From the NCBI GenBank assembly GCA_965232515.1, contig CBDDPY010000002.1, forward strand, positions 3,872,001 through 3,936,000: a DNA stretch of 64,000 nucleotides, in the 5' to 3' direction. Position 1 is the stretch's first letter, and each line of letters opens with the position of its first letter. Position numbers and translations under genes: made by a program. Origin of the DNA: Alphaproteobacteria bacterium (lineage in GTDB: Bacteria; Pseudomonadota; Alphaproteobacteria; GCA-2731375). The notes under the pieces were generated by a model. The model worked only from the letters and a program-made list of their open reading frames with translations, was not told the origin of the DNA and did not search any database. Of this stretch, positions 17,946 through 28,162 are shown one piece after another.

Positions 17946-18929
17946 TTAGGCCAGAGCCTGCGGCCCCATGGCCGCCAGCAGCAGCAGAGCCCCAAATCCC
18001 AGCACCGCGAACGCGCCGACCGCCGCCAGACCGGTATGCAGCCGGCCGGCCCATTTCACGTTCGCGCCGGCGAGCCGCATGGCGAACTGGCGCGACATCA
18101 CCGTCATCGCCGCCAGCGCCGAGACCGTGATCGCCGTGCCGACCGACATGGCGAAGGTGGCGCCGATGCCGACCACAAACAGCCCGTGCGCCAGCGTGAA
18201 TAGCAGAATGATCACAGCGCCGCTGCAGGGGCGGATGCCGACGGCCATGACCACGGCCGCGACCCGGCCAAGCCCGCCACCCGGCTTTATGTCGACCTCG
18301 GCCACGCCGTGACTGTGCCCGCATCCGTGTCCGTGACCGTCGTGATCATGGTGGTGATGGCCATGCCGCCGGTCGGCGACGATGCCGTAAAGCATCCAAA
18401 GACCGACGCCGATCACCAGGACATAGCTGGCGATCTCGAGATAGCGGACGCTGCCCGTGGTCTCGAAGCGCGACAGATCGAGCAGGATCGCCAGCACACC
18501 GACCAGCGCGATGGCCGACAGCGCCTGCACGAACGACGCCAGGAACGAAATCGCGATACCGCGTTTCAACCGGCTGGCGTCGGCCAGCAGATAGGACGAA
18601 ATCACGATCTTGCCATGGCCCGGTCCGACGGCATGGAAAATGCCGTAGAGAAAAGCCAAGAACGCCAGGCTCAATGCCGGCAGTAACGAATCCGAGCCCT
18701 TCATCTCGCGCACGACGGCGGCCAGATCCCGCTGCAGCTTGAACTGCGCGTCGCGGACCTTTTGCAGCAGGGAAGACAGTAATCCGGGTTCCGATGCCCC
18801 GGCCGTTGTCTGACCCGACGACGGCCCCGTCAGCGACGCCTGCGCATATGCCGATGACGACGGGCCCAAAGCGACGACAAGGCCGAACAGCAGGACCGCA
18901 ACAAGAACCGTAACGCGGTCAGCCGTCAT
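17946..18929 (-). CDS. Nickel/cobalt transporter family (NicO/RcnA, ZevB-like) membrane protein
   Basis: YGIFHAVGPGHGK, His-rich loop HGHHHHDHDGHGHGCGHSH, GIRPCSGA. Confidence 0.9.
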   Translation of the reverse strand: MTADRVTVLVAVLLFGLVVALGPSSSAYAQASLTGPSSGQTTAGASEPGLLSSLLQKVRDAQFKLQRDLAAVVREMKGSDSLLPALSLAFLAFLYGIFHAVGPGHGKIVISSYLLADASRLKRGIAISFLASFVQALSAIALVGVLAILLDLSRFETTGSVRYLEIASYVLVIGVGLWMLYGIVADRRHGHHHHDHDGHGHGCGHSHGVAEVDIKPGGGLGRVAAVVMAVGIRPCSGAVIILLFTLAHGLFVVGIGATFAMSVGTAITVSALAAMTVMSRQFAMRLAGANVKWAGRLHTGLAAVGAFAVLGFGALLLLAAMGPQALA

Positions 18930-19533
18930 TGCATGCGATCCGGATCTCCCGGCCAATCCCCCAGCCGTCCATGGCCGAGCCGATCTGCACGTCCTGGCTG
19001 GTGTCGAAATAGCAATCGACCGGCCAGTCGCCGCGCACCCGGACCGGGTCGTGCTCGTCGAGGATCAAGGCGACGTAGAACGTTATGTCGAACATGGCAA
19101 ACACCAGTTCGTCGCGGCGCGGATCGACCCCGTCCGGCAGCGGCACGGTAAAGGCATAGGTGACGATCTCGTTCTTCACGTCGGCCGAGAAATCGTCGAC
19201 CGCGCTGTAGTCGAACGCCTCTCCATTCACGCGGATGTGGGTGAAATAGCCGAAATCCTTGAGCGAACCGAGGCTCTGGTCGGCGATACCGTCAACTTCG
19301 GCGGCGTTGAAACGGCGGTCCCGGTCCTTGTCGAAATCCTCCAACAGCAACAGGCTGAAAAAGTCATCGAAGGTCCAACTGACCCGGATGCCGCGGATCT
19401 CGCCGTCGCGATAGTCCAGCTCGGCGAAGGCGTTGATCCAGACATGGGGATGCGCCTGCGCTGCGCCAGCGGCAACGCCCGCGACGGCCAACACCATGGC
19501 GCCGGCCAGCCAACGACAGACGGATCGCAACAT
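18919..19533 (-). CDS. DUF1007 family periplasmic metal-binding protein (ZevA-like)
   Basis: Signal peptide then HPHVWI, WTFDDFFS, DITFYV; overlaps the NicO-family gene. Confidence 0.88.
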   Translation of the reverse strand: MLRSVCRWLAGAMVLAVAGVAAGAAQAHPHVWINAFAELDYRDGEIRGIRVSWTFDDFFSLLLLEDFDKDRDRRFNAAEVDGIADQSLGSLKDFGYFTHIRVNGEAFDYSAVDDFSADVKNEIVTYAFTVPLPDGVDPRRDELVFAMFDITFYVALILDEHDPVRVRGDWPVDCYFDTSQDVQIGSAMDGWGIGREIRIACNDG

Positions 19534-19591: not shown

Positions 19592-20389
19592 TCACCTTAA
19601 CCAAATGCGTTTCGGCCGGACGATCAGCGAAACGCCGAACAACGCCGCCGCGGCCACGACGATCGCCGGACCCGACGGCAGATCCCAGAGCAGCGAGCTT
19701 TGCAGGCCGAGGCCGACCGTAAGACAGCCGATCAGGCTCGCCAACAAGCCCATCTGCAACGGCGTGCGCGCGAATTGCCGCGCCGCTGCCGCCGGAATGA
19801 TCAGCAGCGAGGTCACCAGCAGGATACCAACGACCTTCATGGCAAGCGCGATCACCACCGCGATCAGCAACATGAAAGCGATCTGGGTGCGCAGCACCGG
19901 CACGCCCTCGACGCGCGCCAGGTCCTCGTGCACGGTGATCGACAGCAACGGCCGCCAGAGCACCGCCATCAGACCGACCGCCGCGATACCGCCGGCATAG
20001 ATCATGTAGATGTCTGTCGTGCCGACGGCCAGGATGTCGCCGAACAGATACGACACCAGGTCGACGCGCAGGGTCTCCATAAAGGCAATCGCCACCAGCC
20101 CCAGCGACAGCGCGCTGTGCGAGAGAATCCCCAGCAGCGTGTCGTCGGCGAGCCCGCGTTGCTGCCGCAGAATCACCAGCAAGATGGCCAGCAGGACGCA
20201 GGTCGCGACGATGCCGAGGCTGACATTGATGCCGAGTAGGAATCCCAGCGCCACGCCCAGCAACGCCGAATGCGCCAGCGTGTCGCCGAAATAGGCCATG
20301 CGCCGCCAGACCACGAAGGCGCCCAAGGGCCCCATGCAGGCGGCGATCCCGACGCCGGCGACGAACGCCCGCAGGATGAAGCTATCCAT
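19592..20389 (-). CDS. znuB: Zinc ABC transporter permease
   Basis: GPLGAFVVWRRMAYFGDTLAHSALLG, DTLLGILSHSALS, YLFGDIL, LLIIPAAAAR. Confidence 0.95.
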   Translation of the reverse strand: MDSFILRAFVAGVGIAACMGPLGAFVVWRRMAYFGDTLAHSALLGVALGFLLGINVSLGIVATCVLLAILLVILRQQRGLADDTLLGILSHSALSLGLVAIAFMETLRVDLVSYLFGDILAVGTTDIYMIYAGGIAAVGLMAVLWRPLLSITVHEDLARVEGVPVLRTQIAFMLLIAVVIALAMKVVGILLVTSLLIIPAAAARQFARTPLQMGLLASLIGCLTVGLGLQSSLLWDLPSGPAIVVAAAALFGVSLIVRPKRIWLR

Positions 20390-21176
20390 GGGACGCGTCC
20401 TTGTCCCGGTCGGTGTCCTGCTCGATTGCCACGGGCGCACCAGAGATATCGTGGTCGTGGCCGTGATGGTGTGTGTAGACCGCTAGGGATTCGCCGACCC
20501 TGGGCCCGAACAGGGCCAGATATTCGGGGTGCTGGCTGACGTCGTCCGGTCGGCCGCTGCAGCAGACATGTCCGTTCAGGCACAGCACCCGATCGGTCGC
20601 CGCCATGACCAGATGCAGATCGTGCGAGACCAGCAGGATGCCGCAGTGACGGCGCCGGCGGATCGTCTGGATCAGCTCGTACAGCTCGGCCTGCCCGCCG
20701 ACGTCGACATTCGCCATCGGCTCGTCCAGCACCAGCAGGTCGGGATCGCGCAACAGGGCGCGGGCCAGCATCACGCGCCGGACCTCGCCGCCCGACAGGT
20801 CATGAAAACCGGCGGCCAGCAGGTTCGGCACGCCGACCTCCAGCAACGCCTGCTGCATGCTGTCGGTCGGCACGCGCCGGCCCAGCAACAGAAACTGCCG
20901 CACTGTAAGCGGCAGCGTCCGGTCGATCTGCAGATGCTGCGGCACGTAGCCGATGACGATGCCATCCTCCCGCTGCAACCGGCCGGCGCTCGGCTTCATC
21001 AGCCCCAGAAGAACCCGGATCAGCGTCGTCTTGCCGGAACCGTTCGGTCCGATCAGCGTGACAATCTCATCGCGATGCACGGCGATATCGACATGATCGA
21101 GGATCGCCCGGTCGCCGCGCCGGACACTGATCTCCCAGCCCGAGACGAGGGCGGGACGGCTATCGGCGTCAGGCAT
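20382..21176 (-). CDS. znuC: Zinc ABC transporter ATP-binding protein (start may extend to 21200)
   Basis: GPNGSGKTT, LSGGE, VSHDLHLVMAATDRVLCLNGHVCCSG, YTHHHGHDHD. Confidence 0.95.
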   Translation of the reverse strand: MPDADSRPALVSGWEISVRRGDRAILDHVDIAVHRDEIVTLIGPNGSGKTTLIRVLLGLMKPSAGRLQREDGIVIGYVPQHLQIDRTLPLTVRQFLLLGRRVPTDSMQQALLEVGVPNLLAAGFHDLSGGEVRRVMLARALLRDPDLLVLDEPMANVDVGGQAELYELIQTIRRRRHCGILLVSHDLHLVMAATDRVLCLNGHVCCSGRPDDVSQHPEYLALFGPRVGESLAVYTHHHGHDHDISGAPVAIEQDTDRDKDASHG

Positions 21177-21684
21177 CCCGTCCCCGCTCGTCATGCGCAT
21201 CGCTGCAATCGGGGCACATGCCGCTGACTTCGATGGTCTGGTGGCGCACCGCGAACCCCAGATCGCGGGCCTTCGCCAACACGCGTTTGGCGATGTCGGG
21301 ATCGTCCAGTTCCGCGACCGACTGACAGCCGTCGCAAATCAGGAACTGGCCGCGATGCGGCGCATCGGGCTGCACGCAGCCGATATAGGCGTTTAGCGAT
21401 TCGAGCTTGTGGATCAGGCCATGCTCCAGCAGGAAATCGAGCGCGCGATAGACCGTCGGGGGCGCGGCCCCATCGTGCTCGCTGCGCAGCTGGTCCAGCA
21501 GATCGTAAGCCCGCGTCGGCTTGTGCGCTGCCCACAGCATTTCGAATACGCGCCGCCGCAAATGGGTGAGGCGCGCGTTGCGCCGGGCGCAAACTGCCTC
21601 GGCCGCTGCCAGTGCATCGGCCACACACTGCCCATGATCGTGGCCGCGCGCCGCGAAACCCGATTCGGTATTGGATGTATCCAT
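21169..21684 (-). CDS. zur: Fur-family zinc uptake regulator
   Basis: HDHGQCV, APPTVYRALDFL, HKLESLNAYIGC, CDGC and CPDC; located within the znu cluster. Confidence 0.93.
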   Translation of the reverse strand: MDTSNTESGFAARGHDHGQCVADALAAAEAVCARRNARLTHLRRRVFEMLWAAHKPTRAYDLLDQLRSEHDGAAPPTVYRALDFLLEHGLIHKLESLNAYIGCVQPDAPHRGQFLICDGCQSVAELDDPDIAKRVLAKARDLGFAVRHQTIEVSGMCPDCSDAHDERGRDA

Positions 21685-21730
21685 CGCCAGCCTTTGACCC
21701 TGTCGGCAAATTGATTGCCGCACCTAGAGC

Positions 21731-21783: not shown

Positions 21784-22872
21784 ATGAGGCCCTGGCTGAG
21801 CAGATGGGCAGCGCCGGCTGCCACCACCATTGTCGGTATCATGAGCGCCGGCATGGTTCACGCAGATGCGCCGGACATCGTCGTCACCATCAAACCTTTG
21901 CATTCGCTCGTCGCTGGCGTCAGCGAGGGCGTGACGACCCCCCACTTGCTGCTCAAGGGCGGCGCGTCGCCGCATACCTATGCCATGCGACCGTCGGACG
22001 CGAAAGCAACCGAGCAGGCCGATGTCATCTTCTGGGTCGGCCCGGAACTTGAAACCTTCTTCGAACGCACCGTCGATGCGCTCGGCCGCAAGGCGCGCGT
22101 CGTTGCCCTTGCCGACGATGCCGGCCTGACGCTGCTCGAGGCGCGCGAAGGCGGCACCTGGGAGGCCCATGACGATCACGCGCACGGTCACGATGATCAT
22201 GGTCACGACGACCACGGCCATGACGACCATGCAAAAAAAGATGATGACCACGACGATCATGCGCATGAGAAACATGACGATCATGCGCATGAGAAACACG
22301 ACGATCACGCGCATGAGAAGCACGCCGGCCACGACGATCATGACGGCCATCACGTCGATGCCCATGTCTGGCTCGATCCGGACAACGCCAGGAAAATCGT
22401 CGACAATGCCGTCGCGGTGTTGAGCGATATCGATCCCGAGAACGCCGGCCGTTATGCCGAGAACGGCAACCGCATGCGGGCCCGCATCGACGCCATGGAC
22501 AAGGACATCGCCACGGCGTTATCGACCGTAAAATCGAAGCCGTACATCGTGTTCCACGACGCTTATCAGTATTTCGAACGGCATTACGGTCTGAACGCGA
22601 CCGGTTCCATCACCACCAGTCCGGAAAACCGTCCCGGCGCCAAGCGGCTTTACGAGATCCGCAAGAAAATTGCGGACCTCGGCGCCGTCTGCGTGTTCAG
22701 CGAGCCGCAGTTCGAACCGGCCCTCGTCAACACGCTGATCGAGGGCACGCCGGCCCGTAACGGCGAACTCGATCCGGTAGGCGCCGCCATACCCGAAGGG
22801 CCCGACGCCTATTTCGCCATAATGACCGATCTCGCCGACTCCATTCGGACCTGCCTGCAACCCGCGACCTGA
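21784..22872 (+). CDS. znuA: Zinc ABC transporter substrate-binding protein with long His/Asp-rich loop
   Basis: VVTIKPLHSLV, ASPHTYAMRPSDA, DAHVWLDP, FHDAYQYFE, CVFSEPQF. Confidence 0.96.
   Translation: MRPWLSRWAAPAATTIVGIMSAGMVHADAPDIVVTIKPLHSLVAGVSEGVTTPHLLLKGGASPHTYAMRPSDAKATEQADVIFWVGPELETFFERTVDALGRKARVVALADDAGLTLLEAREGGTWEAHDDHAHGHDDHGHDDHGHDDHAKKDDDHDDHAHEKHDDHAHEKHDDHAHEKHAGHDDHDGHHVDAHVWLDPDNARKIVDNAVAVLSDIDPENAGRYAENGNRMRARIDAMDKDIATALSTVKSKPYIVFHDAYQYFERHYGLNATGSITTSPENRPGAKRLYEIRKKIADLGAVCVFSEPQFEPALVNTLIEGTPARNGELDPVGAAIPEGPDAYFAIMTDLADSIRTCLQPAT
22249..22320 (+). repeat. 24-bp tandem repeat x3 encoding HDDHAHEK in znuA
   Basis: CAYGACGATCAYGCGCATGAGAAR, three consecutive copies. 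Confidence 0.85.
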
Positions 22873-22995: not shown

Positions 22996-24528
22996 ATGCG
23001 ACACCTACGCCTTGTCTGTTTCGTGTCTGCGGTTGTGGGAATGGCGCTCGCGCCAGTCGGACTTAGCCATGCGCAAACGACGAGCGATACCGACGCGCGC
23101 CTGCGCCTGCTCGAGGCCACGCTGCAGGATCTGCTGGCGCGAGATCAGGAAAAGGACCGGTTGATCGAGCAACTGCAGGCGGAACTGGCCCGGCTGCGGG
23201 CCGGCGACCGGACGCCGCCCCATGGCGCCGCGGGTCACACCGATACCCATGCCCATACCCATGCACAGGCACCGACCGACGCGCGGTCCAAGCCCGCAGG
23301 CGAACATGGTCATGCCCACGGTGCCCATGGCGCCGATGGTGAGGGCGGCGGCGACCTGTTCGCCGTCGAGGTCGGCGACGGCGTCACCGCGCGCATGAAG
23401 CGGATCGGTGTCGATGTCGCGCTCGCGGCCGGCTACTCGTCGGAGACCGAGCAGGAGACCATCGAACAGCTACAGGGCGGCGGTCACGATCCGCGTCAAA
23501 ACGGCTTCACCGTGCGGACGGTCGACCTGTCGCTGATCGGCGGCCTCGATCCCTATTTCGACGCCGAAGTGCATATCGCCTTCTTCCTCGATCCCGAAGG
23601 CGAAACCCAGGTCGAGCTGGAGGAGGCCTTCCTGCGCACGCAGACGACGCCGGTCGAGCTCGAGGTCGGCCAGATGTTCACGGAATTCGGCGCCTTCAAT
23701 CCGAAGCACGTGCACGATTGGGACTGGCTGGATCAGCCGGTGGTGAACACGCGCATGTTCGGCGAGGACGGCATCCGCGGGCCTGGCTTCCGCCTCGGCT
23801 GGTCGCCTGTCGAGCAGATCACGCTGCATGCGGGCATGCAGAACGCCAAGGGCGAGACGATGGTCAGTTTTCTCTCGAGCGACGAGGCCTTCGAGGAACG
23901 CCCGCTCGGCGGTCGCGCCTTCAACGAGCGTAACGTCGACAGCTTCGAGGAGTTCGTCTACCTCGCCCGCGTGGCGACGCATTTCGACGTCGGCGGCGCC
24001 CATGTCGACCTCGGCGCCTCCGGCCTTTACGGTCCCAACGCCACGGGCGGCGACGGCGAGACCTATATCGTCGGCGCCGACCTGACGGTCAACGCCAAGC
24101 TCGGCGAGACGCGCTATCTGCGCTGGCAGTCGGAAGCGATGTACCGCGGCTACGATGCCGATGACGATCCCGCGAACGGCTTCGTCTCCGACGATCTCGA
24201 CGACTACGGCCTCTATACCCAGCTCTTGGTCGGCTTCAATCGCGCCTGGGCGGGCGGTCTGCGCTATGAGTATGTCAGCGGCGATGGCGCCAGCGTCGGC
24301 GACTTCGCCGACCGCGACGCGGATCCGTTCCGGTCCGACCGGCACCGCATTTCGCCGTTGCTGCAATGGCAGTTCGCGCCGACCGCCAAGATCCGGTTGC
24401 AGTACAACTACGACGATGCCGACTTCCTCGAGGACGGCAGCGACGCGCACGCGATCTGGCTCGGTTTCGACTGGTCGTTCGGCGCCGGTTCCGCCGGGCA
24501 CGGCCATGACGACGGTCATGCGCACTGA
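22996..24528 (+). CDS. Zinc-regulated outer-membrane beta-barrel protein with His-rich segments
   Basis: Signal peptide, coiled coil, His-rich linker, LDPYFDA..ELEEAF, NPKHVHDWDW, alternating beta-strand pattern, KIRLQYNYD, His-rich tail GHGHDDGHAH. Confidence 0.75.
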   Translation: MRHLRLVCFVSAVVGMALAPVGLSHAQTTSDTDARLRLLEATLQDLLARDQEKDRLIEQLQAELARLRAGDRTPPHGAAGHTDTHAHTHAQAPTDARSKPAGEHGHAHGAHGADGEGGGDLFAVEVGDGVTARMKRIGVDVALAAGYSSETEQETIEQLQGGGHDPRQNGFTVRTVDLSLIGGLDPYFDAEVHIAFFLDPEGETQVELEEAFLRTQTTPVELEVGQMFTEFGAFNPKHVHDWDWLDQPVVNTRMFGEDGIRGPGFRLGWSPVEQITLHAGMQNAKGETMVSFLSSDEAFEERPLGGRAFNERNVDSFEEFVYLARVATHFDVGGAHVDLGASGLYGPNATGGDGETYIVGADLTVNAKLGETRYLRWQSEAMYRGYDADDDPANGFVSDDLDDYGLYTQLLVGFNRAWAGGLRYEYVSGDGASVGDFADRDADPFRSDRHRISPLLQWQFAPTAKIRLQYNYDDADFLEDGSDAHAIWLGFDWSFGAGSAGHGHDDGHAH

Positions 24529-24616
24529 GACCAGACGGCTTCCGGCAGCGGCGACTTCGCGTGCTTTCCTCCCCAAGGATTGACGAAAACGCGGATGGGG
24601 CTGACTGCCAGAGCGG

Positions 24617-24650
24617 TGGCATGCGGGTGGCGTATCTCACCCGCATGCCA
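24617..24650. terminator. Hairpin between convergent genes
   Basis: TGGCATGCGGGTG-N8-CACCCGCATGCCA, a perfect 13-bp stem. Confidence 0.6.
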
Positions 24651-24661
24651 TCACCTGCTTT

Positions 24662-25126
24662 TCAGATCTTCGATTCCTGAGCCTGGTCGAGGAAAAGGTC
24701 GCTGAGATCGGCCGTCGGCACCCAGCAGACGTCTTTCTTGCCGAACCAGCGGTAGCGGCGGTTGCCGATGAAATCGTAGACCGCGTTACGGGCAAACGGC
24801 GGGATCACCAGGAATGCCGCCATCAGCGGCCAGGCGCCGCTCAGCCGCCGGCAAACCCTGAGCGCGGCCGACGACTTCACATGCACCCGTCCGTCGGCGA
24901 TCAGGATCACGGTGCTGAGGTCGGGAATCGTCGCATCGTGGGCCGCCAACAGCCGCTGGCCGATCTCGGACTGCAGCGAGGCGAAGCGGAACCGGCGGCC
25001 GGAATCGCGGGCGATCACGAACTGCACGCTCGCCTGACACAGATTGCAGACGCCGTCGAACAGGATCACGTCCGTCGCCGCCGCTGCGGCGACGTCCGGC
25101 GTCGGACTGGCGGTTGAGATCGACAT
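24662..25126 (-). CDS. DCC family thiol-disulfide oxidoreductase (DUF393)
   Basis: ILFDGVCNLC (DxxCxxC), FRFASLQS, KSSAAL, YDFIGNRRYRWFGKKDVC. Confidence 0.93.
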   Translation of the reverse strand: MSISTASPTPDVAAAAATDVILFDGVCNLCQASVQFVIARDSGRRFRFASLQSEIGQRLLAAHDATIPDLSTVILIADGRVHVKSSAALRVCRRLSGAWPLMAAFLVIPPFARNAVYDFIGNRRYRWFGKKDVCWVPTADLSDLFLDQAQESKI

Positions 25127-25174
25127 AGCCTTACGAATATGGCGACTGCCGATGCGCCTGTCCAACTGCCGGTA

Positions 25175-26539
25175 TCACTGCGGCAGCCAGTCGGGCCGTT
25201 GGTCGTGGGGCAGGAACGGCTGGTCCAGCGGCAGGATCCAATCAGCGTGCTGCAGATTGCGCTCGATTTTCGTCAGGTCGCGGGTCGGATCGACCAACGG
25301 CGCCGGCAGCCGGCCGTTCAGCGAGATCATGACCGTGGCGCGCACCTCCGGATCCTCGACGCCTTCCAGATCCTGCCAGAGCTGCTCCAGCTTGTAGGCC
25401 CATTGCAGGATCATGTCGGGATGCATGCGCATCTTGTATTTCGTAACGTCGACCTTCCACTGCCGGTTGGTGGCCGGATCGGTGACCTCGAACACTGCTT
25501 CGGTGACCCGCTTCTGCCGCAGTTTCATGCGCCAGGCGAAGCGGTGCCCCTCCTCGTTCCAGGCGACGTCGCCGGGATAGGCATAGTGCCTGAGCGGCAC
25601 CAGCACCTGCGCCGCGAACCAGAGCGCCAGGAATCCGGCGACAACGCCGAAATGCGCCCGCGACACCGGCGGTGCCACGCCCAGCGCCGCCGCGCGCATC
25701 GGCAGCCCGCGCAAGCGCTGCCAGACCTGTTTCGGCCAGTCCGGATCGAAGAAGATCAGCGTGCCGAAGAGCGTCAGCCACGGGAAGATGCCGATCTCGA
25801 AGAACGCCGCGTTCATGCCGTGGAAGAACACGTAGGACACGAAGACCCAGGCGCGCGTCTTGCGGAACAGCAGCAACGGCGCGCCGATCAGATGCAGGGC
25901 GATGGCGCCGTAGGCCGCCGCCGCCACCACCCAGGTCTCGGTGAAATAGGCGCCGATCAGTGGAAAATCGGGCTGCGCCGCCATCCACATGCGCATCGGC
26001 TCCAACCGTAGCCAGTCGGCGTTGACCTTGACGATGCCGGCGTAGAGCAGCATGACCTCGAACTGGGCCCGGATGGACCAGACCGACCAGTTCGGCACGG
26101 TCGCCTCGCGCAGGCGCGGCCACAGCCAGGCGTCCAGTGAATAGCCCCGGTGCGCCGGCGCCACGGCCAGCAGGAAGGCCAGCAGCGAGGCGAAGTAGAA
26201 GTGGTTCTTGTACTGGTTCTGGTCGATCAGGAAGATGAAGGTGAAAGCCAGAAACAGACCGATGGCGGCCAAACGATAGAACAGGCCGACCGTGACCAGC
26301 GCCGCCAGCACGCCCAGGATGGCGAAGTGCCAGTACATGCCGTCGCCGGGCCAGGGCTGGACCCATTCGAAACCGTAATATTTGAAGAACCACTGCGGCT
26401 TGACGTAGTTCTTCTCGATCCAGCCCTTGCCGAAATAGCGGCTGACCTCCCACAGCATGATGAGGCCAAAACTGACCCGGAACACCGCCAGCGAGGCGGC
26501 GTCGACGGGCCGGAACATCCACTCGCGCAGTTGCGTCAT
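25175..26539 (-). CDS. HTTM-domain / vitamin K-dependent gamma-carboxylase-like membrane protein
   Basis: FRPVDAASLAVFRVSFG, YKNHFYF, YAGIVKVNADW, FHGMNAAFFEIGIFPW, EEGHRFAWRMKLR, HPDMILQWA, SLNGR..PLVDPTRDL, WILPL. Confidence 0.9.
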   Translation of the reverse strand: MTQLREWMFRPVDAASLAVFRVSFGLIMLWEVSRYFGKGWIEKNYVKPQWFFKYYGFEWVQPWPGDGMYWHFAILGVLAALVTVGLFYRLAAIGLFLAFTFIFLIDQNQYKNHFYFASLLAFLLAVAPAHRGYSLDAWLWPRLREATVPNWSVWSIRAQFEVMLLYAGIVKVNADWLRLEPMRMWMAAQPDFPLIGAYFTETWVVAAAAYGAIALHLIGAPLLLFRKTRAWVFVSYVFFHGMNAAFFEIGIFPWLTLFGTLIFFDPDWPKQVWQRLRGLPMRAAALGVAPPVSRAHFGVVAGFLALWFAAQVLVPLRHYAYPGDVAWNEEGHRFAWRMKLRQKRVTEAVFEVTDPATNRQWKVDVTKYKMRMHPDMILQWAYKLEQLWQDLEGVEDPEVRATVMISLNGRLPAPLVDPTRDLTKIERNLQHADWILPLDQPFLPHDQRPDWLPQ

Positions 26540-26752
26540 GGCTCAACCGAATCGGTCGTCGTCAATATTCCTGCCTGATAGCGAAGCTGGAGGCCGCGAC
26601 GCAAGCATCCTCTCGGTGATTTCAACCGGTCAGGCTGGAGATTGTTGGAATTCCGCCACATATTCACCACAAAGCGAGACAAGGATACAGCCGGTCCGGC
26701 AGCGGATAGCGCCCGGATCGTGCATGACGAGCACCTCTCGGGGAGGAGCAAC

Positions 26753-28162
26753 ATGAACGAGAGGTCGATCACAACGCCAGCGCCGGACCAGGCGCAACGC
26801 CGTCCGGACGACGACATGCCCGAGCGGTTGACCGACGCGTTCCGCGCCGAGCAGCTCGCCGGCTTGCGTCTGGCGACACAGGCCCGCGTCGTCGTCATCG
26901 TGCTGGTTGCGCTATGGGTGCCGATCCAGGTCTACCGTCCCGGCGTCACGCTCTACTACGAGATCATGCTGGCGCTGTTCGCCGGCATCGGCATCTTGCA
27001 CTACACGCTTCGCAGCCGGTCGCCGGACAAGGCCTGGCTCGACTACCTGTTCGTCAGCCTGGACGTCATCCTCCTGACCTTCGCACTGGTCGCGTCGGCC
27101 TATCTGACCGAGGAAGTCTGGCCGCCGCAGGCCTATATGCGGTTCGCCAACTTCGCCTACTTCTTCGTCTTCATCGCCGTCGTCTCCTTGAGCTATTCGC
27201 CGAAGCTGATGCTCTGGGCCGGCGGCGCGATCGCCGTCTGCTGGACGATCGGCTCATATTGGGTGGCATCGCGGCCCGAGACCGTGCACTGGTTCCGCTA
27301 CGAGGGCATGGAAGAACAGCTGACCGCTGAGAGAGCGCTCGCCCTGTTCCTGGAGCCGACATTCATCGACCTTGGCGCGCGTGGCCTGGAAGTCGTCGCG
27401 ATCCTTCTTGTGACCGGCGTGTTGGCCGCTGTTGTCTGGCGGTCGCGTCGCTTGGTGATCAGCCAAGCCGCCGCGGCGCGGGAACGGACCAACCTGGCGC
27501 GCTACTTCTCACCCAACATCGTCGAAGAGCTCAGCCATGCCGACAACCCGTTGAGCGGTGAACGCGAGCAGCCGGTCGCGGTGATGTTCGTCGACATCGT
27601 CGGCTTTACCCGGCTTGCCGAACAGGCCGAGCGCGGCCGCGTGATCGAGCTGCTGCGCGAGTTCCATGCCCGGGTCGAAAGGGTTGTGTTTCAGCACGGC
27701 GGCACCCTGGACAAGTATCTCGGCGACGGTGTCATGGCGACCTTCGGCACGCCGGTCAGCGGACCGCGGGACGCGGCCAACGCGCTTGCCTGCGCGGCCG
27801 AGCTGCTACGTGTGATCGACGCCTGGAACCAGGAACGCGCGGCGCGCAATCAGCCCTTCATCGAGCTGTCGATCGGCGTCCATTACGGCACCGCCGTGCT
27901 GGGCGATATCGGCTCCGAGCGGCGTCTCGAGTTTGCCGTGCTGGGCGACGTCGTGAACGTGGCCAGCCGCCTCGAGCGTCTGACCCGCGATCTCGGTTGC
28001 CGGATCGTGATCAGCGACGATGTCGTTCACGCCGCGAACGCCACGGGCGCCGACGGTATCGGCAGATTGCTCGAGAGCTATCGGCAGGAGGCCCCGCAAC
28101 CGCTGCGGGGCCGCGATCAGCCGGTGCTGGTCTGGACCTGTCGCGAGAACGCGTCTCGATGA
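26753..28162 (+). CDS. Membrane-bound class III nucleotide (adenylate/guanylate) cyclase
   Basis: RBS GGAGGAG; about 6 TM helices; NLARYFSP, VMFVDIVGFT, DKYLGDGVMATFG, IGVHYG, GDVVNVASRLE. Confidence 0.92.
   Translation: MNERSITTPAPDQAQRRPDDDMPERLTDAFRAEQLAGLRLATQARVVVIVLVALWVPIQVYRPGVTLYYEIMLALFAGIGILHYTLRSRSPDKAWLDYLFVSLDVILLTFALVASAYLTEEVWPPQAYMRFANFAYFFVFIAVVSLSYSPKLMLWAGGAIAVCWTIGSYWVASRPETVHWFRYEGMEEQLTAERALALFLEPTFIDLGARGLEVVAILLVTGVLAAVVWRSRRLVISQAAAARERTNLARYFSPNIVEELSHADNPLSGEREQPVAVMFVDIVGFTRLAEQAERGRVIELLREFHARVERVVFQHGGTLDKYLGDGVMATFGTPVSGPRDAANALACAAELLRVIDAWNQERAARNQPFIELSIGVHYGTAVLGDIGSERRLEFAVLGDVVNVASRLERLTRDLGCRIVISDDVVHAANATGADGIGRLLESYRQEAPQPLRGRDQPVLVWTCRENASR

What the first reader, a model, noticed from the sequence alone, without database searches (positions are those of the whole stretch)
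24662..26539. Full-length vitamin K-dependent gamma-carboxylase homologue in an apparent operon with a DCC thiol-disulfide oxidoreductase
Seen: the 454-aa protein has the HTTM membrane region and the C-terminal carboxylase region. It keeps motifs matching animal GGCX as I recall them: NH (YKNHFY vs WNNHSY), the Lys in AGIVKVNADW (vs AGVKKLDADW, the proposed catalytic base), HPDMILQ and SLNGR..DP..D. A DxxCxxC oxidoreductase follows co-directionally 48 nt downstream. Established: animal GGCX needs reduced quinone recycled through thiol chemistry (VKOR), bacterial GGCX-like proteins are largely uncharacterised, and HTTM relatives such as Bacillus SdpB act in peptide maturation. Inference: the pair may be a bacterial quinone-dependent protein modification system (Glu carboxylation or related chemistry) with DCC as redox partner.
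Basis: partly seen in the sequence, partly recalled or inferred. Interest (0 to 1): 0.75.

Follow-up and report, generated by a model that had tools for sequence, protein, structure and literature searches.

The report
Bacterial GGCX-like enzyme with DCC partner
A two-gene operon encodes a compact bacterial relative of the blood-clotting vitamin K carboxylase and a small thiol-redox protein that travels with it across many bacteria, pointing to an untested bacterial quinone cycle.

Summary
25175-26539(-) encodes a 454-aa HTTM + VKGC-lumenal protein, and 24662-25126(-) encodes a DCC1-like CxxC protein 48 nt downstream. The membrane protein matches human GGCX (E 4e-41; model TMq 0.80-0.83). It keeps the equivalents of K218, W223, N159/H160, F299, H287, H381 and M401. 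D263 and Y395 are both His, and clamp B and the C-terminal domain are missing.

The DCC link is real. A DCC1-like gene lies within 1 kb in 48 of 80 related loci, in four arrangements. HTTM-DCC fusions exist. In nine loci the carboxylase-like gene is split into two ORFs, and in the one locus read in full a DCC gene follows them.

The host has UbiG but no MenD, MqnA/D, VKOR or Gla domain. "Vitamin K-dependent Glu carboxylation" is therefore not supported as stated.

Best reading (0.45): a quinol/O2-dependent oxygenase-carboxylase facing the periplasm, whose spent quinone is regenerated by the cytoplasmic DCC protein. The substrate is unknown.

Bacterial GGCX homologues, one fusion and MloH are already in print, so this is a new variant of a known kind.

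The parts
25175..26539 (-). Gene for the 454-aa GGCX-like membrane enzyme (HTTM TM1-8, TM9, periplasmic clamp-A-like domain). It contains no cysteine.
   Evidence: ORF. Pfam HTTM 1.5e-85 and VKGC_lumenal 3e-37. Human GGCX E 3.5e-41. AF2 model pLDDT 88.1. Foldseek TMq 0.80-0.83 to GGCX chains.
25736..26515 (-). HTTM domain, residues 9-268.
   Evidence: Helices in the model. Basic residues cluster in loops 127-149, 223-229 and 264-293, as expected for cytoplasmic loops (read from the translation).
26027..26029 (-). Codon of Lys171, aligned to the human catalytic base Lys218.
   Evidence: Alignment. Invariant in 47 homologues and in the window protein, 7 HTTM-DCC fusions and the Tistlia HTTM ORF. 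The role of K218 comes from PMC12647623, section 13.
26201..26206 (-). Codons of Asn112-His113, aligned to human Asn159-His160, which bind the substrate carboxylate.
   Evidence: both invariant. Roles.
25223..25642 (-). VKGC lumenal (clamp-A-like) domain, residues 300-439, preceded by TM9 (residues 294-320).
   Evidence: Aligns to human 384-509. Nothing corresponds to human clamp B or the CTD.
25127..25174 (-). 48-nt spacer between the two genes, with AAGG 5 nt before the ATG.
   Evidence: One promoter-like consensus match lies here (1 found against 0.4 expected), which is not evidence of function.
24662..25126 (-). Gene for the 154-aa DCC1-like thioredoxin-fold protein. It has no signal peptide and a hydrophobic helical pair at residues 99-122.
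   Evidence: Pfam 2.8e-30. AF2 model pLDDT 89.1 with beta-alpha-beta-alpha-beta-beta-alpha order. Best structural matches are all thioredoxin, glutaredoxin or GST-N folds at Z 5.8-4, which is weak.
25037..25048 (-). Codons of Cys27-x-x-Cys30 (the DxxCxxC motif), at the start of helix 1.
   Evidence: Invariant in 29 operon-linked DCC proteins. Position relative to helix 28-40.
24725..24727 (-). Codon of Cys134, a third invariant Cys of this DCC subtype.
   Evidence: Also present in the DCC domain of the HTTM-DCC fusions. Absent from the genome's second DCC paralogue and from the divergent adjacent DCC type, as in L009.
24615..24652 (.). 16-bp-stem hairpin between the convergent genes, a likely terminator.
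   Evidence: This is a consensus scan only.
26540..26641 (.). Divergent intergenic region upstream of the operon, shared with the adenylate-cyclase gene at 26642-28162(+).
   Evidence: No promoter-like site was called here.

Best explanation
The two genes form one functional module. The 454-aa protein is a nine-helix inner-membrane enzyme of the GGCX family. Its catalytic Lys171 and its C-terminal clamp-A-like domain face the periplasm.

I infer that it works like GGCX. Lys171 deprotonates a bound quinol. The quinol reacts with O2 to give a strongly basic oxygenated intermediate and ends as a quinone epoxide. The base removes a proton next to a carboxylate, which is held by Asn112, His113, His332 and Lys343. 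The carbanion is probably carboxylated by CO2 held against Phe252.

The substrate is unknown. It is not recognised by an animal-type propeptide cleft, because clamp B and the CTD are absent. In this host the quinone is most likely ubiquinol, or a quinone taken up from outside, and not home-made menaquinone.

The DCC1-like protein is a cytoplasmic, probably membrane-peripheral CxxC thioredoxin-fold protein. I infer that it uses cytoplasmic thiol reducing power to convert the spent quinone (epoxide) back to usable quinone. That is the job VKOR does in animals, in genomes that have no VKOR.

Shown here: homology, fold, conserved residues, gene linkage, fusions, and the lack of men, mqn and VKOR genes. 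Inferred: topology, every chemical step, the identity of the quinone, and the role of DCC.
For: Homology and fold:
- Pfam HTTM + VKGC_lumenal.
- Human GGCX E 3.5e-41 over query 8-442.
- All 16 Foldseek matches with E<=0.001 are GGCX chains, TMq 0.65-0.83.

Residue map from the alignment, checked against the residue names in PMC12647623 sections 12-13:
- Kept: N159>N112, H160>H113, A214>A167, K218>K171, W223>W176, H287>H240, F299>F252, H381>H318, W399>W336, M401>M338.
- Basic residue kept: R406>K343, H440>H373.
- N112, H113, A167, K171, W176, H240, F252, H318, W336, M338 and K343 are invariant in 47 homologues at about 50% identity.

Linkage:
- A DCC1-like ORF lies within 1 kb in 48 of 80 related loci: 35 downstream on the same strand, 5 downstream on the opposite strand, 6 upstream divergent, 2 upstream on the same strand.
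- Eight divergent examples exceed the Pfam cut-off.
- It is the only recurrent neighbour family.
- HTTM-DCC fusions: 8 of 70 long DCC proteins at E<=0.01, 6 of them over the cut-off. They keep the Lys and carry the same DCC subtype.
- One fusion is described in bioRxiv 10.64898/2026.08.19.745780 (passages).
- In Tistlia the gene is split into HTTM | TM9+lumenal, followed by DCC. Nine loci show the split.

Need for a recycler:
- VKOR is absent from the own genome and from 5 of 5 other carrier genomes.
- The four of those carriers without an adjacent DCC gene still have one elsewhere.

Other support:
- DCC has a thioredoxin-like secondary-structure order, with CxxC at the start of helix 1.
- Both genes differ from a 95-99% relative mostly at third codon positions: 22 of 27 and 10 of 13 listed differences (my arithmetic).
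- Published parallel: VKOR next to GGCX-like epoxidases in giant viruses (PMC13486548, passages).
Against: - Human D263 is His216 here. D263 variants other than D263E are reported inactive (PMC13486548 passage citing its ref. 66), so the deprotonation step may differ.
- Y395 is His332 and M402 is Lys339.
- No MenD over the cut-off and no MqnA/D in the own genome or in 3 of 5 other carriers. Whether ubiquinol can support this chemistry is unknown to me.
- DCC should sit on the opposite side of the membrane from Lys171 (inference).
- The membrane protein has no Cys, so there is no thiol relay through it.
- Close relatives of this DCC (49-53% identity) are also fused to unrelated domains: RNase_T, AAA_28, NmrA-like, PEMT, M50B, Wzy_C and periplasmic-binding domains. 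DCC is therefore a general module, not a dedicated GGCX partner.
- 32 of 80 loci show no adjacent DCC, although at least 8 of these have under 450 nt on one side.
- No substrate gene, no Gla domain (its control rang nowhere) and no activity data.
- The RNA-library contigs do not bridge the two genes and may derive from DNA.
Confidence: 0.45

Rival explanations
1. The enzyme is an epoxidase only. It oxygenates a quinol but does not carboxylate. The strong base, or the quinone oxidation itself, serves another reaction such as lipid modification, isomerisation or redox signalling. DCC still recycles the quinone.
For: Giant-virus GGCX-like proteins are proposed to be epoxidases coupled to desaturases (PMC13486548, passages). 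A Leptospira orthologue was reported to epoxidise without carboxylating; I recall this (Rishavy et al. 2005) and did not find it in the library. Clamp B and the CTD are absent, and Y395 and D263 are changed. No Gla domain or substrate gene was found.
Against: Unlike the viral proteins, this one keeps the human 374-418 region with H381, W399 and M401. It also keeps the CO2-stacking Phe and the carboxylate-binding Asn-His, all invariant in the family. Wu et al. argue that the CO2-fixing residues are conserved in bacterial homologues (passages).
Confidence: 0.2
2. DCC is not a cofactor recycler. It acts on the substrate or on the enzyme itself, for example by reducing or oxidising cysteines of a peptide before export, by regulating the membrane enzyme, or by binding a metal or Fe-S centre with its three Cys. 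The pair would then be a peptide-maturation and export system like SdpAB.
For: DCC domains close to this one are fused to many unrelated proteins, which suggests a generic role. This subtype has three invariant Cys. HTTM proteins such as SdpB act in peptide maturation; this is recalled and was not checked here. The complex prediction gave no verdict, so direct binding is not supported either way.
Against: No peptide or precursor gene is conserved next to the pair in 80 loci. The second, divergent DCC type that is also linked to the gene lacks the third Cys. The full GGCX catalytic set is conserved, whereas at E<=0.01 no NCBIfam model matched the membrane protein.
Confidence: 0.2
3. The membrane protein is not an enzyme of this type at all. 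It would be a structural or chaperone-like HTTM protein, with catalytic-looking residues retained for quinone or lipid binding only, and the DCC adjacency reflects shared regulation.
For: No activity is known for this clade. The D263 equivalent is changed.
Against: About ten active-site positions are invariant across homologues that are only about 50% identical, and the Lys is kept even in fusions at 16-22% identity. Listed differences from a 95-99% relative lie mostly at third codon positions. Fusion and fission of the three modules argue for joint function.
Confidence: 0.08

Closest known systems
[quoted passage not shown]
   Same: Nine-helix HTTM membrane domain plus clamp-A lumenal domain. 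E 3.5e-41 and TMq about 0.8. Equivalents of K218, W223, A214, N159, H160, H287, F299, H381, W399 and M401 are kept.
   Different: 454 against 758 aa: clamp B and the CTD are absent, so there is no two-sided propeptide cleft. D263>His, Y395>His, K217>Val, M402>Lys. No cysteines. The host lacks menaquinone synthesis, VKOR and Gla domains.
MloH, bacterial GGCX orthologue of malonomycin biosynthesis (Law et al. 2018; seen only as cited)
   Same: A bacterial GGCX-family enzyme proposed to use the same quinol/CO2 chemistry on a carboxylate-bearing substrate (Asp carboxylation).
   Different: MloH sits in a PKS-NRPS cluster, and its substrate is the pathway intermediate. Here there is no biosynthetic cluster, and the only conserved neighbour is DCC.
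HTTM-DCC1-like fusion + DUF5819 pair of Firmicutes (bioRxiv 10.64898/2026.08.19.745780, passages)
   Same: The same three modules: the HTTM catalytic membrane domain, a TM-anchored clamp-like domain, and a DCC1-like domain of the same subtype.
   Different: The modules are distributed differently. There it is [HTTM-DCC] + [TM-DUF5819]. Here it is [HTTM-TM9-clamp A] + [DCC]. In Tistlia it is [HTTM] + [TM9-clamp A] + [DCC]. The preprint does not discuss what the DCC domain does.
VKOR (vitamin K epoxide reductase), including giant-virus VKOR + GGCX-like epoxidase modules (PMC13486548, passages)
   Same: A CxxC thiol enzyme genetically linked to a GGCX-like enzyme. This is the proposed functional analogy: regeneration of the quinone.
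   Different: There is no homology. VKOR is a four-helix membrane protein whose Cys usually face outward. DCC is a soluble or peripheral thioredoxin-fold protein predicted to be cytoplasmic. VKOR was not found in this genome or in 5 other carriers.
DCC1-like / DUF393 family (PF04134; B. subtilis YuxK, Arabidopsis DCC1)
   Same: Pfam match at 106 bits, DxxCxxC motif, about 110-residue thioredoxin-like core.
   Different: This subtype carries a third invariant Cys (C134) and is the one found fused to HTTM. The genome's other paralogue lacks it. I know of no biochemical activity for any bacterial member. The library searches found none.

Membership tests
GGCX / VKGC (vitamin K-dependent gamma-carboxylase) | HTTM membrane domain | tested here: met
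   PF05090, 287 bits against a cut-off of 27.7, full profile 1-259.
GGCX / VKGC (vitamin K-dependent gamma-carboxylase) | VKGC lumenal domain (clamp A, including the conserved 374-418 region) | tested here: met
   PF22777, 128 bits. H381, W399 and M401 equivalents are present.
GGCX / VKGC (vitamin K-dependent gamma-carboxylase) | Catalytic base Lys218 with Trp223 stacking | tested here: met
   K171 and W176 are aligned and invariant in 47 homologues.
GGCX / VKGC (vitamin K-dependent gamma-carboxylase) | Asp263 next to the catalytic Lys | tested here: not met
   His216 aligns to D263. The His is invariant in the family.
GGCX / VKGC (vitamin K-dependent gamma-carboxylase) | Substrate-carboxylate and CO2 pocket residues (N159, H160, Y395, F299) | tested here: inconclusive
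   N112, H113 and F252 are kept. Y395 is His332.
GGCX / VKGC (vitamin K-dependent gamma-carboxylase) | Clamp B jelly-roll and C-terminal domain forming the propeptide cleft | tested here: not met
   The protein ends at residue 454. The alignment stops at human 509 of 758. Architecture.
GGCX / VKGC (vitamin K-dependent gamma-carboxylase) | Naphthoquinone (vitamin K) cofactor available in the cell | tested here: not met
   No MenD over the cut-off (best 71.9 against 244.2 bits) and no MqnA/D. UbiG is present. The genome is 96% complete. Uptake from outside is not excluded.
GGCX / VKGC (vitamin K-dependent gamma-carboxylase) | Gla-domain or propeptide-bearing substrates | tested here: inconclusive
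   PF00594 was not found, but the control rang in none of the 14 control genomes.
GGCX / VKGC (vitamin K-dependent gamma-carboxylase) | Carboxylase and epoxidase activity | not testable with these tools
   This needs a biochemical assay.
DCC1-like thiol-disulfide oxidoreductase (PF04134) | Profile match and DxxCxxC motif | tested here: met
   106 bits against a cut-off of 27.8. D24, C27 and C30 are invariant.
DCC1-like thiol-disulfide oxidoreductase (PF04134) | Thioredoxin-like fold with CxxC at the start of helix 1 | tested here: inconclusive
   The secondary-structure order fits. All top structural matches are thioredoxin, glutaredoxin or GST-N folds, but only at Z<=5.8, and no Foldseek hit has E<=0.001.
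DCC1-like thiol-disulfide oxidoreductase (PF04134) | Thiol-disulfide oxidoreductase activity | not testable with these tools
   None.
VKOR (considered only as the functional analogue of DCC) | VKOR fold or profile | tested here: not met
   PF07884 is absent from the genome. DCC is an unrelated family.
SdpB-type HTTM peptide-maturation proteins | Match to an SdpB-family model and an adjacent precursor/SdpA-like gene | tested here: inconclusive
   No NCBIfam family matched at E<=0.01. I did not verify that an SdpB model is in that library. No conserved precursor-like neighbour.

The most novel reading that the evidence does not exclude
DCC1-like proteins are an unrecognised class of cytoplasmic-face quinone-epoxide (or quinone) reductases that replace VKOR. 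Together with compact GGCX-like enzymes they run a ubiquinone-based 'vitamin K cycle' in Proteobacteria. This cycle carboxylates, or otherwise base-activates, an envelope substrate that is not encoded next to the pair.
Probability: 0.2. Interest if true: 0.85.

Novelty: new variant of a known kind. Interest (0 to 1): 0.55.

Why it matters
GGCX chemistry uses an oxygenated quinol as a very strong base to fix CO2 onto a carbon acid. It is known in depth only for animal clotting and bone proteins, plus one antibiotic pathway.

This family is large: 2519 proteins with E<=1e-10 among the 8000 candidates scored. It is patchily spread among Proteobacteria, with a full-length form in 2 of 401 sampled genomes. 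No function is known for this clade.

The conserved DCC partner gives a concrete hypothesis that can be tested at the bench: how such enzymes recycle their quinone without VKOR, and perhaps without vitamin K at all. It would also give the widespread DCC/DUF393 family its first biochemical role.

Cultivable carriers make the tests feasible. Examples are Marinobacter nauticus, Ferrimonas balearica, Kordiimonas species and Tistlia consotensis (record titles).

Tried and rejected
- **Complex prediction of the two proteins.** No answer: score 0.00, controls not run. This is no evidence for or against binding.
- **Foldseek of the DCC model against the PDB.** No match at E<=0.001. A sequence search of the PDB gave only a chance hit at E 0.018.
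- **Even sampling of the phylum for HTTM.** Only 10 of 401 genomes matched, and only 2 had the full-length form. This is too few for a co-occurrence test, so I relied on the 80 loci.
- **First DCC scans.** These used a narrow profile and missed the divergent DCC type. My ORF filter also hid genes under antisense ORFs, as in L009. The scan was redone with a broader profile on all six-frame ORFs.
- **hhalign of the family against a 612-aa protein with an N-terminal DCC domain.** No relation (probability 0.1), so that architecture is not an HTTM fusion. A 444-aa protein with C-terminal DCC aligned collinearly over 256 columns, but weakly (E 0.0015, probability 16.6). It is not counted as a fusion.
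- **Gla-domain search.** Nothing found, but the control rang in no control genome.
- **Leptospira carboxylase paper.** Not in the searchable library. It is cited from recall only.
- **Sequencing runs.** The polyA RNA run X21 laid 0 reads. Contigs from RNA libraries X4, X6 and X9 cover both genes at 95-99% identity but do not bridge the junction, and they may derive from DNA. This is not evidence of co-transcription.
- **Zinc-uptake genes nearby** (znuA at 21784-22872, and others). They are not conserved beside the pair in other loci, so a zinc link was rejected.
- **Earlier notes of this scan.** Searches by sequence and by place found nothing.
Full report
**1. Observation**

The window holds a 454-aa ORF at 25175-26539(-) and, on the same strand, an ORF at 24662-25165(-). 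Read from its in-frame ATG at 25126, the second ORF gives 154 aa. The first gene's stop is TGA at 25175-25177. The 48-nt spacer carries AAGG 5 nt before that ATG.

- Pfam assigns the first protein HTTM (1.5e-85, res 9-268, whole profile) and VKGC_lumenal_dom (3e-37, res 300-439).
- Pfam assigns the second protein DCC1-like (2.8e-30).
- NCBIfam has no model for either protein at E<=0.01.

Both flanking genes lie on the + strand. A His-rich porin-like protein (22996-24528) ends towards the pair, and an adenylate-cyclase-domain protein (26642-28162) starts away from it. A 16-bp-stem hairpin lies between the convergent gene ends.

**2. Relation to GGCX**

Against all PDB chain sequences, the only hits are human GGCX constructs. 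The best is E 3.5e-41, covering query 8-442 and human 55-509. An AlphaFold2 model built on 47 homologues has mean pLDDT 88.1. All 16 Foldseek matches at E<=0.001 are GGCX chains, with TMq 0.65-0.83.

I mapped residues by hand from the HMMER alignment. The numbering is self-consistent: every residue named in Wu et al. 2025 (PMC12647623; sections 6, 12 and 13 read) falls on the right letter of the aligned human sequence.

| Human residue | Window residue | Status |
|---|---|---|
| N159 | N112 | kept |
| H160 | H113 | kept |
| A214 | A167 | kept |
| K218 (general base) | K171 | kept |
| W223 | W176 | kept |
| H287 | H240 | kept |
| F299 (CO2 stacking) | F252 | kept |
| H381 | H318 | kept |
| W399 | W336 | kept |
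| M401 | M338 | kept |
| R406 | K343 | basic residue kept |
| H440 | H373 | basic residue kept |
| K217 | V170 | changed |
| D263 | H216 | changed |
| Y395 | H332 | changed |
| M402 | K339 | changed |

N112, H113, A167, K171, W176, H216, H240, F252, H318, W336, M338 and K343 are invariant, and H332 nearly so, among 47 homologues only about 50% identical to the window protein.

- The D263 change matters. A passage in PMC13486548 reports that D263 variants other than D263E are inactive.
- The protein stops where human clamp B and the C-terminal domain begin. It therefore has only one side of the clamp that grips the propeptide.
- It contains no cysteine (translation).
- Basic residues cluster in loops 127-149, 223-229 and 264-293. 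With the GGCX topology, this puts K171 and the C-terminal domain on the periplasmic side. This is an inference from the sequence and from homology.

**3. The DCC link**

The family is large. 2519 proteins reached E<=1e-10 among the 8000 candidates scored, and all 120 listed carry both Pfam domains. A scan of one genome per species found 570 relatives, of which the best 80 loci were kept.

A broad DCC profile run over all six-frame ORFs finds a DCC-like ORF within 1 kb of the GGCX-like gene in 48 of the 80 loci:

| Arrangement | Loci |
|---|---|
| Immediately downstream, same strand | 35 |
| Downstream, opposite strand | 5 |
| Upstream, divergent | 6 |
| Upstream, same strand | 2 |
| None found | 32 |

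- Of the 32 loci without one, at least 8 have under 450 nt on one side.
- Eight of the divergent examples were checked in Pfam, and all exceed the cut-off. The other 40 were not scanned individually.
- Clustering all neighbours within 3.5 kb shows no other recurrent family beyond narrow lineages.
- Carriers span Alpha-, Beta- and Gammaproteobacteria (record titles).
- Of five genomes first scored as lacking an adjacent DCC, one (L009) had simply been missed. The other four carry a DCC1-like gene elsewhere. None of the five has VKOR.

Fusions and fissions point the same way.

- Among the first 70 of 82 long proteins related to the window's DCC, 8 carry HTTM at E<=0.01, 6 of them over the cut-off. 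In these, the DCC domain directly follows the HTTM domain.
- The fusions keep the catalytic Lys. Their DCC domain is the window's subtype, including a third invariant Cys (C134 here).
- One such fusion, partnered with a TM-anchored clamp-like DUF5819 protein, is described in a 2026 preprint (passages).
- In Tistlia consotensis the gene is two overlapping ORFs, HTTM and TM9+lumenal, followed by DCC. Nine loci show a split at this boundary, with differing frame offsets.

Three modules thus recur in different packaging: the HTTM core, a TM-anchored clamp, and DCC.

Against exclusivity, close relatives of this DCC are also fused to unrelated domains: RNase_T, AAA_28, NmrA-like, PEMT, M50B, Wzy_C and periplasmic-binding domains. 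The genome also has a second, different DCC paralogue.

**4. Cofactor and substrate**

The 7.39-Mb genome is 96% complete. Its content is as follows.

| Feature | Result |
|---|---|
| HTTM genes | one |
| DCC genes | two |
| VKOR | none |
| MenD | none over the cut-off (best 71.9 vs 244.2 bits) |
| MqnA/D | none |
| UbiG | clear match (293 vs 103 bits) |
| Gla domain | none (control rang nowhere) |

Among five other carriers, MenD is present in two and absent in three, and MqnA/D is absent in all five. The system is therefore not tied to menaquinone synthesis. "Vitamin K-dependent" is a family name here, not a finding.

**5. The DCC protein**

The DCC model has pLDDT 89.1. Its secondary-structure order is thioredoxin-like, with CxxC at the start of helix 1, followed by a hydrophobic helical pair. 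Structural matches are weak (Z<=5.8), but all are thioredoxin, glutaredoxin or GST-N folds. There is no signal peptide. In fusions the domain follows TM8, so it should be cytoplasmic (inference).

**6. Expression and selection**

Contigs from RNA libraries of a 95-99% identical relative cover both genes, but they do not bridge them and could derive from DNA. Their listed differences fall at third codon positions in 22 of 27 cases in the GGCX-like gene and 10 of 13 in the DCC gene (my arithmetic). This fits purifying selection on both frames.

**7. Reading**

The most economical account is a GGCX-type enzyme facing the periplasm. It would use quinol and O2 to generate a strong base, and probably carboxylates a carboxylate-bearing substrate that is not encoded nearby. 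It is coupled to a cytoplasmic CxxC protein that restores the spent quinone, which is the role VKOR plays in animals and, as proposed, in giant viruses.

- Respiratory dehydrogenases can reduce quinone, but an epoxide needs a dedicated reductase. That would explain why the one conserved partner is a thiol enzyme, and why VKOR is missing.
- All of this is inference. I put it at 0.45.
- The rivals are an epoxidase-only enzyme, a DCC that acts on the substrate or the enzyme rather than on the quinone, and a non-enzymatic HTTM protein.

**8. Novelty**

- Bacterial GGCX homologues with conserved catalytic residues are in print (Wu et al. 2025, Fig. 6b legend and discussion).
- So is MloH (Law et al. 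2018; seen only as cited).
- So is one HTTM-DCC fusion.
- Library searches for DUF393, DCC1-like, PF04134, YuxK and HTTM domain found no paper that assigns DCC a role beside GGCX-like enzymes. Subscription journals and preprint supplements were not visible.
I did not examine that locus.

The gene itself is an ordinary member of an annotated but unstudied family. What is new is the compact clamp-A-only form with an operonic DCC partner, in a host without menaquinone synthesis or VKOR.

Noticed in passing
L070:5932-7865 (Tistlia consotensis); also L032, L038, L044, L048, L062, L063, L065, L067: The GGCX-like gene is split into two overlapping ORFs at the HTTM / TM9 boundary (query residues about 275-299). 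The frame change is +1 in 7 loci and different in L044 and L063. In L070, the one locus read in full, a DCC gene follows. This looks like a natural gene fission rather than an assembly error.
   Followed up: partly
L073:5992-7882: A second, partial HTTM ORF (profile positions 1-137) lies in tandem directly after the full-length GGCX-like gene, at the contig end.
   Followed up: no
window 22996-24528 (+): A 510-aa protein with His-rich stretches at both ends and weak porin-like matches (Porin_O_P and LbtU siderophore porin, both below cut-off). It lies next to znuA (21784-22872), a ZnuC-like ABC ATPase (20382-21200), a ZnuB-like permease (19592-20440) and a Fur/Zur-like regulator (21169-21723). 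It may be a zinc-regulated outer-membrane channel.
   Followed up: no
window 17946-19533 (-): Two further genes lie beside the zinc cluster. One is a membrane protein with a His-rich loop (HHHHDHDGHGHGCGH). The other is a 204-aa exported protein. They may belong to a metal-transport pair.
   Followed up: no
P0129, P0133, P0134 and about 30 others: A large class of 530-630-aa proteins has an N-terminal DCC1-like domain followed by a membrane region of about 450 aa. That region gives only weak DoxX/MauE-like matches and is not HTTM-like (hhalign probability 0.1). This is another uncharacterised DCC-membrane fusion.
   Followed up: partly
L019:7398-8526 (Inquilinus sp.): The DCC1-like gene, convergent with the GGCX-like gene, is followed by a glutathione S-transferase gene. 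This is a second thiol-chemistry neighbour, seen in this one locus.
   Followed up: no
L025, L029, L037, L040, L042 (Kordiimonas), about 4.8-5.8 kb: A nitronate-monooxygenase-like FMN enzyme is encoded divergently upstream of the GGCX-like gene in all five Kordiimonas loci. This is lineage-specific.
   Followed up: no
runs X1-X3 and X21-X24: The runs that hold the whole stretch share a species label with polyA RNA-Seq libraries. The bacterium may therefore have been assembled from a eukaryotic host's sequencing.
   Followed up: no
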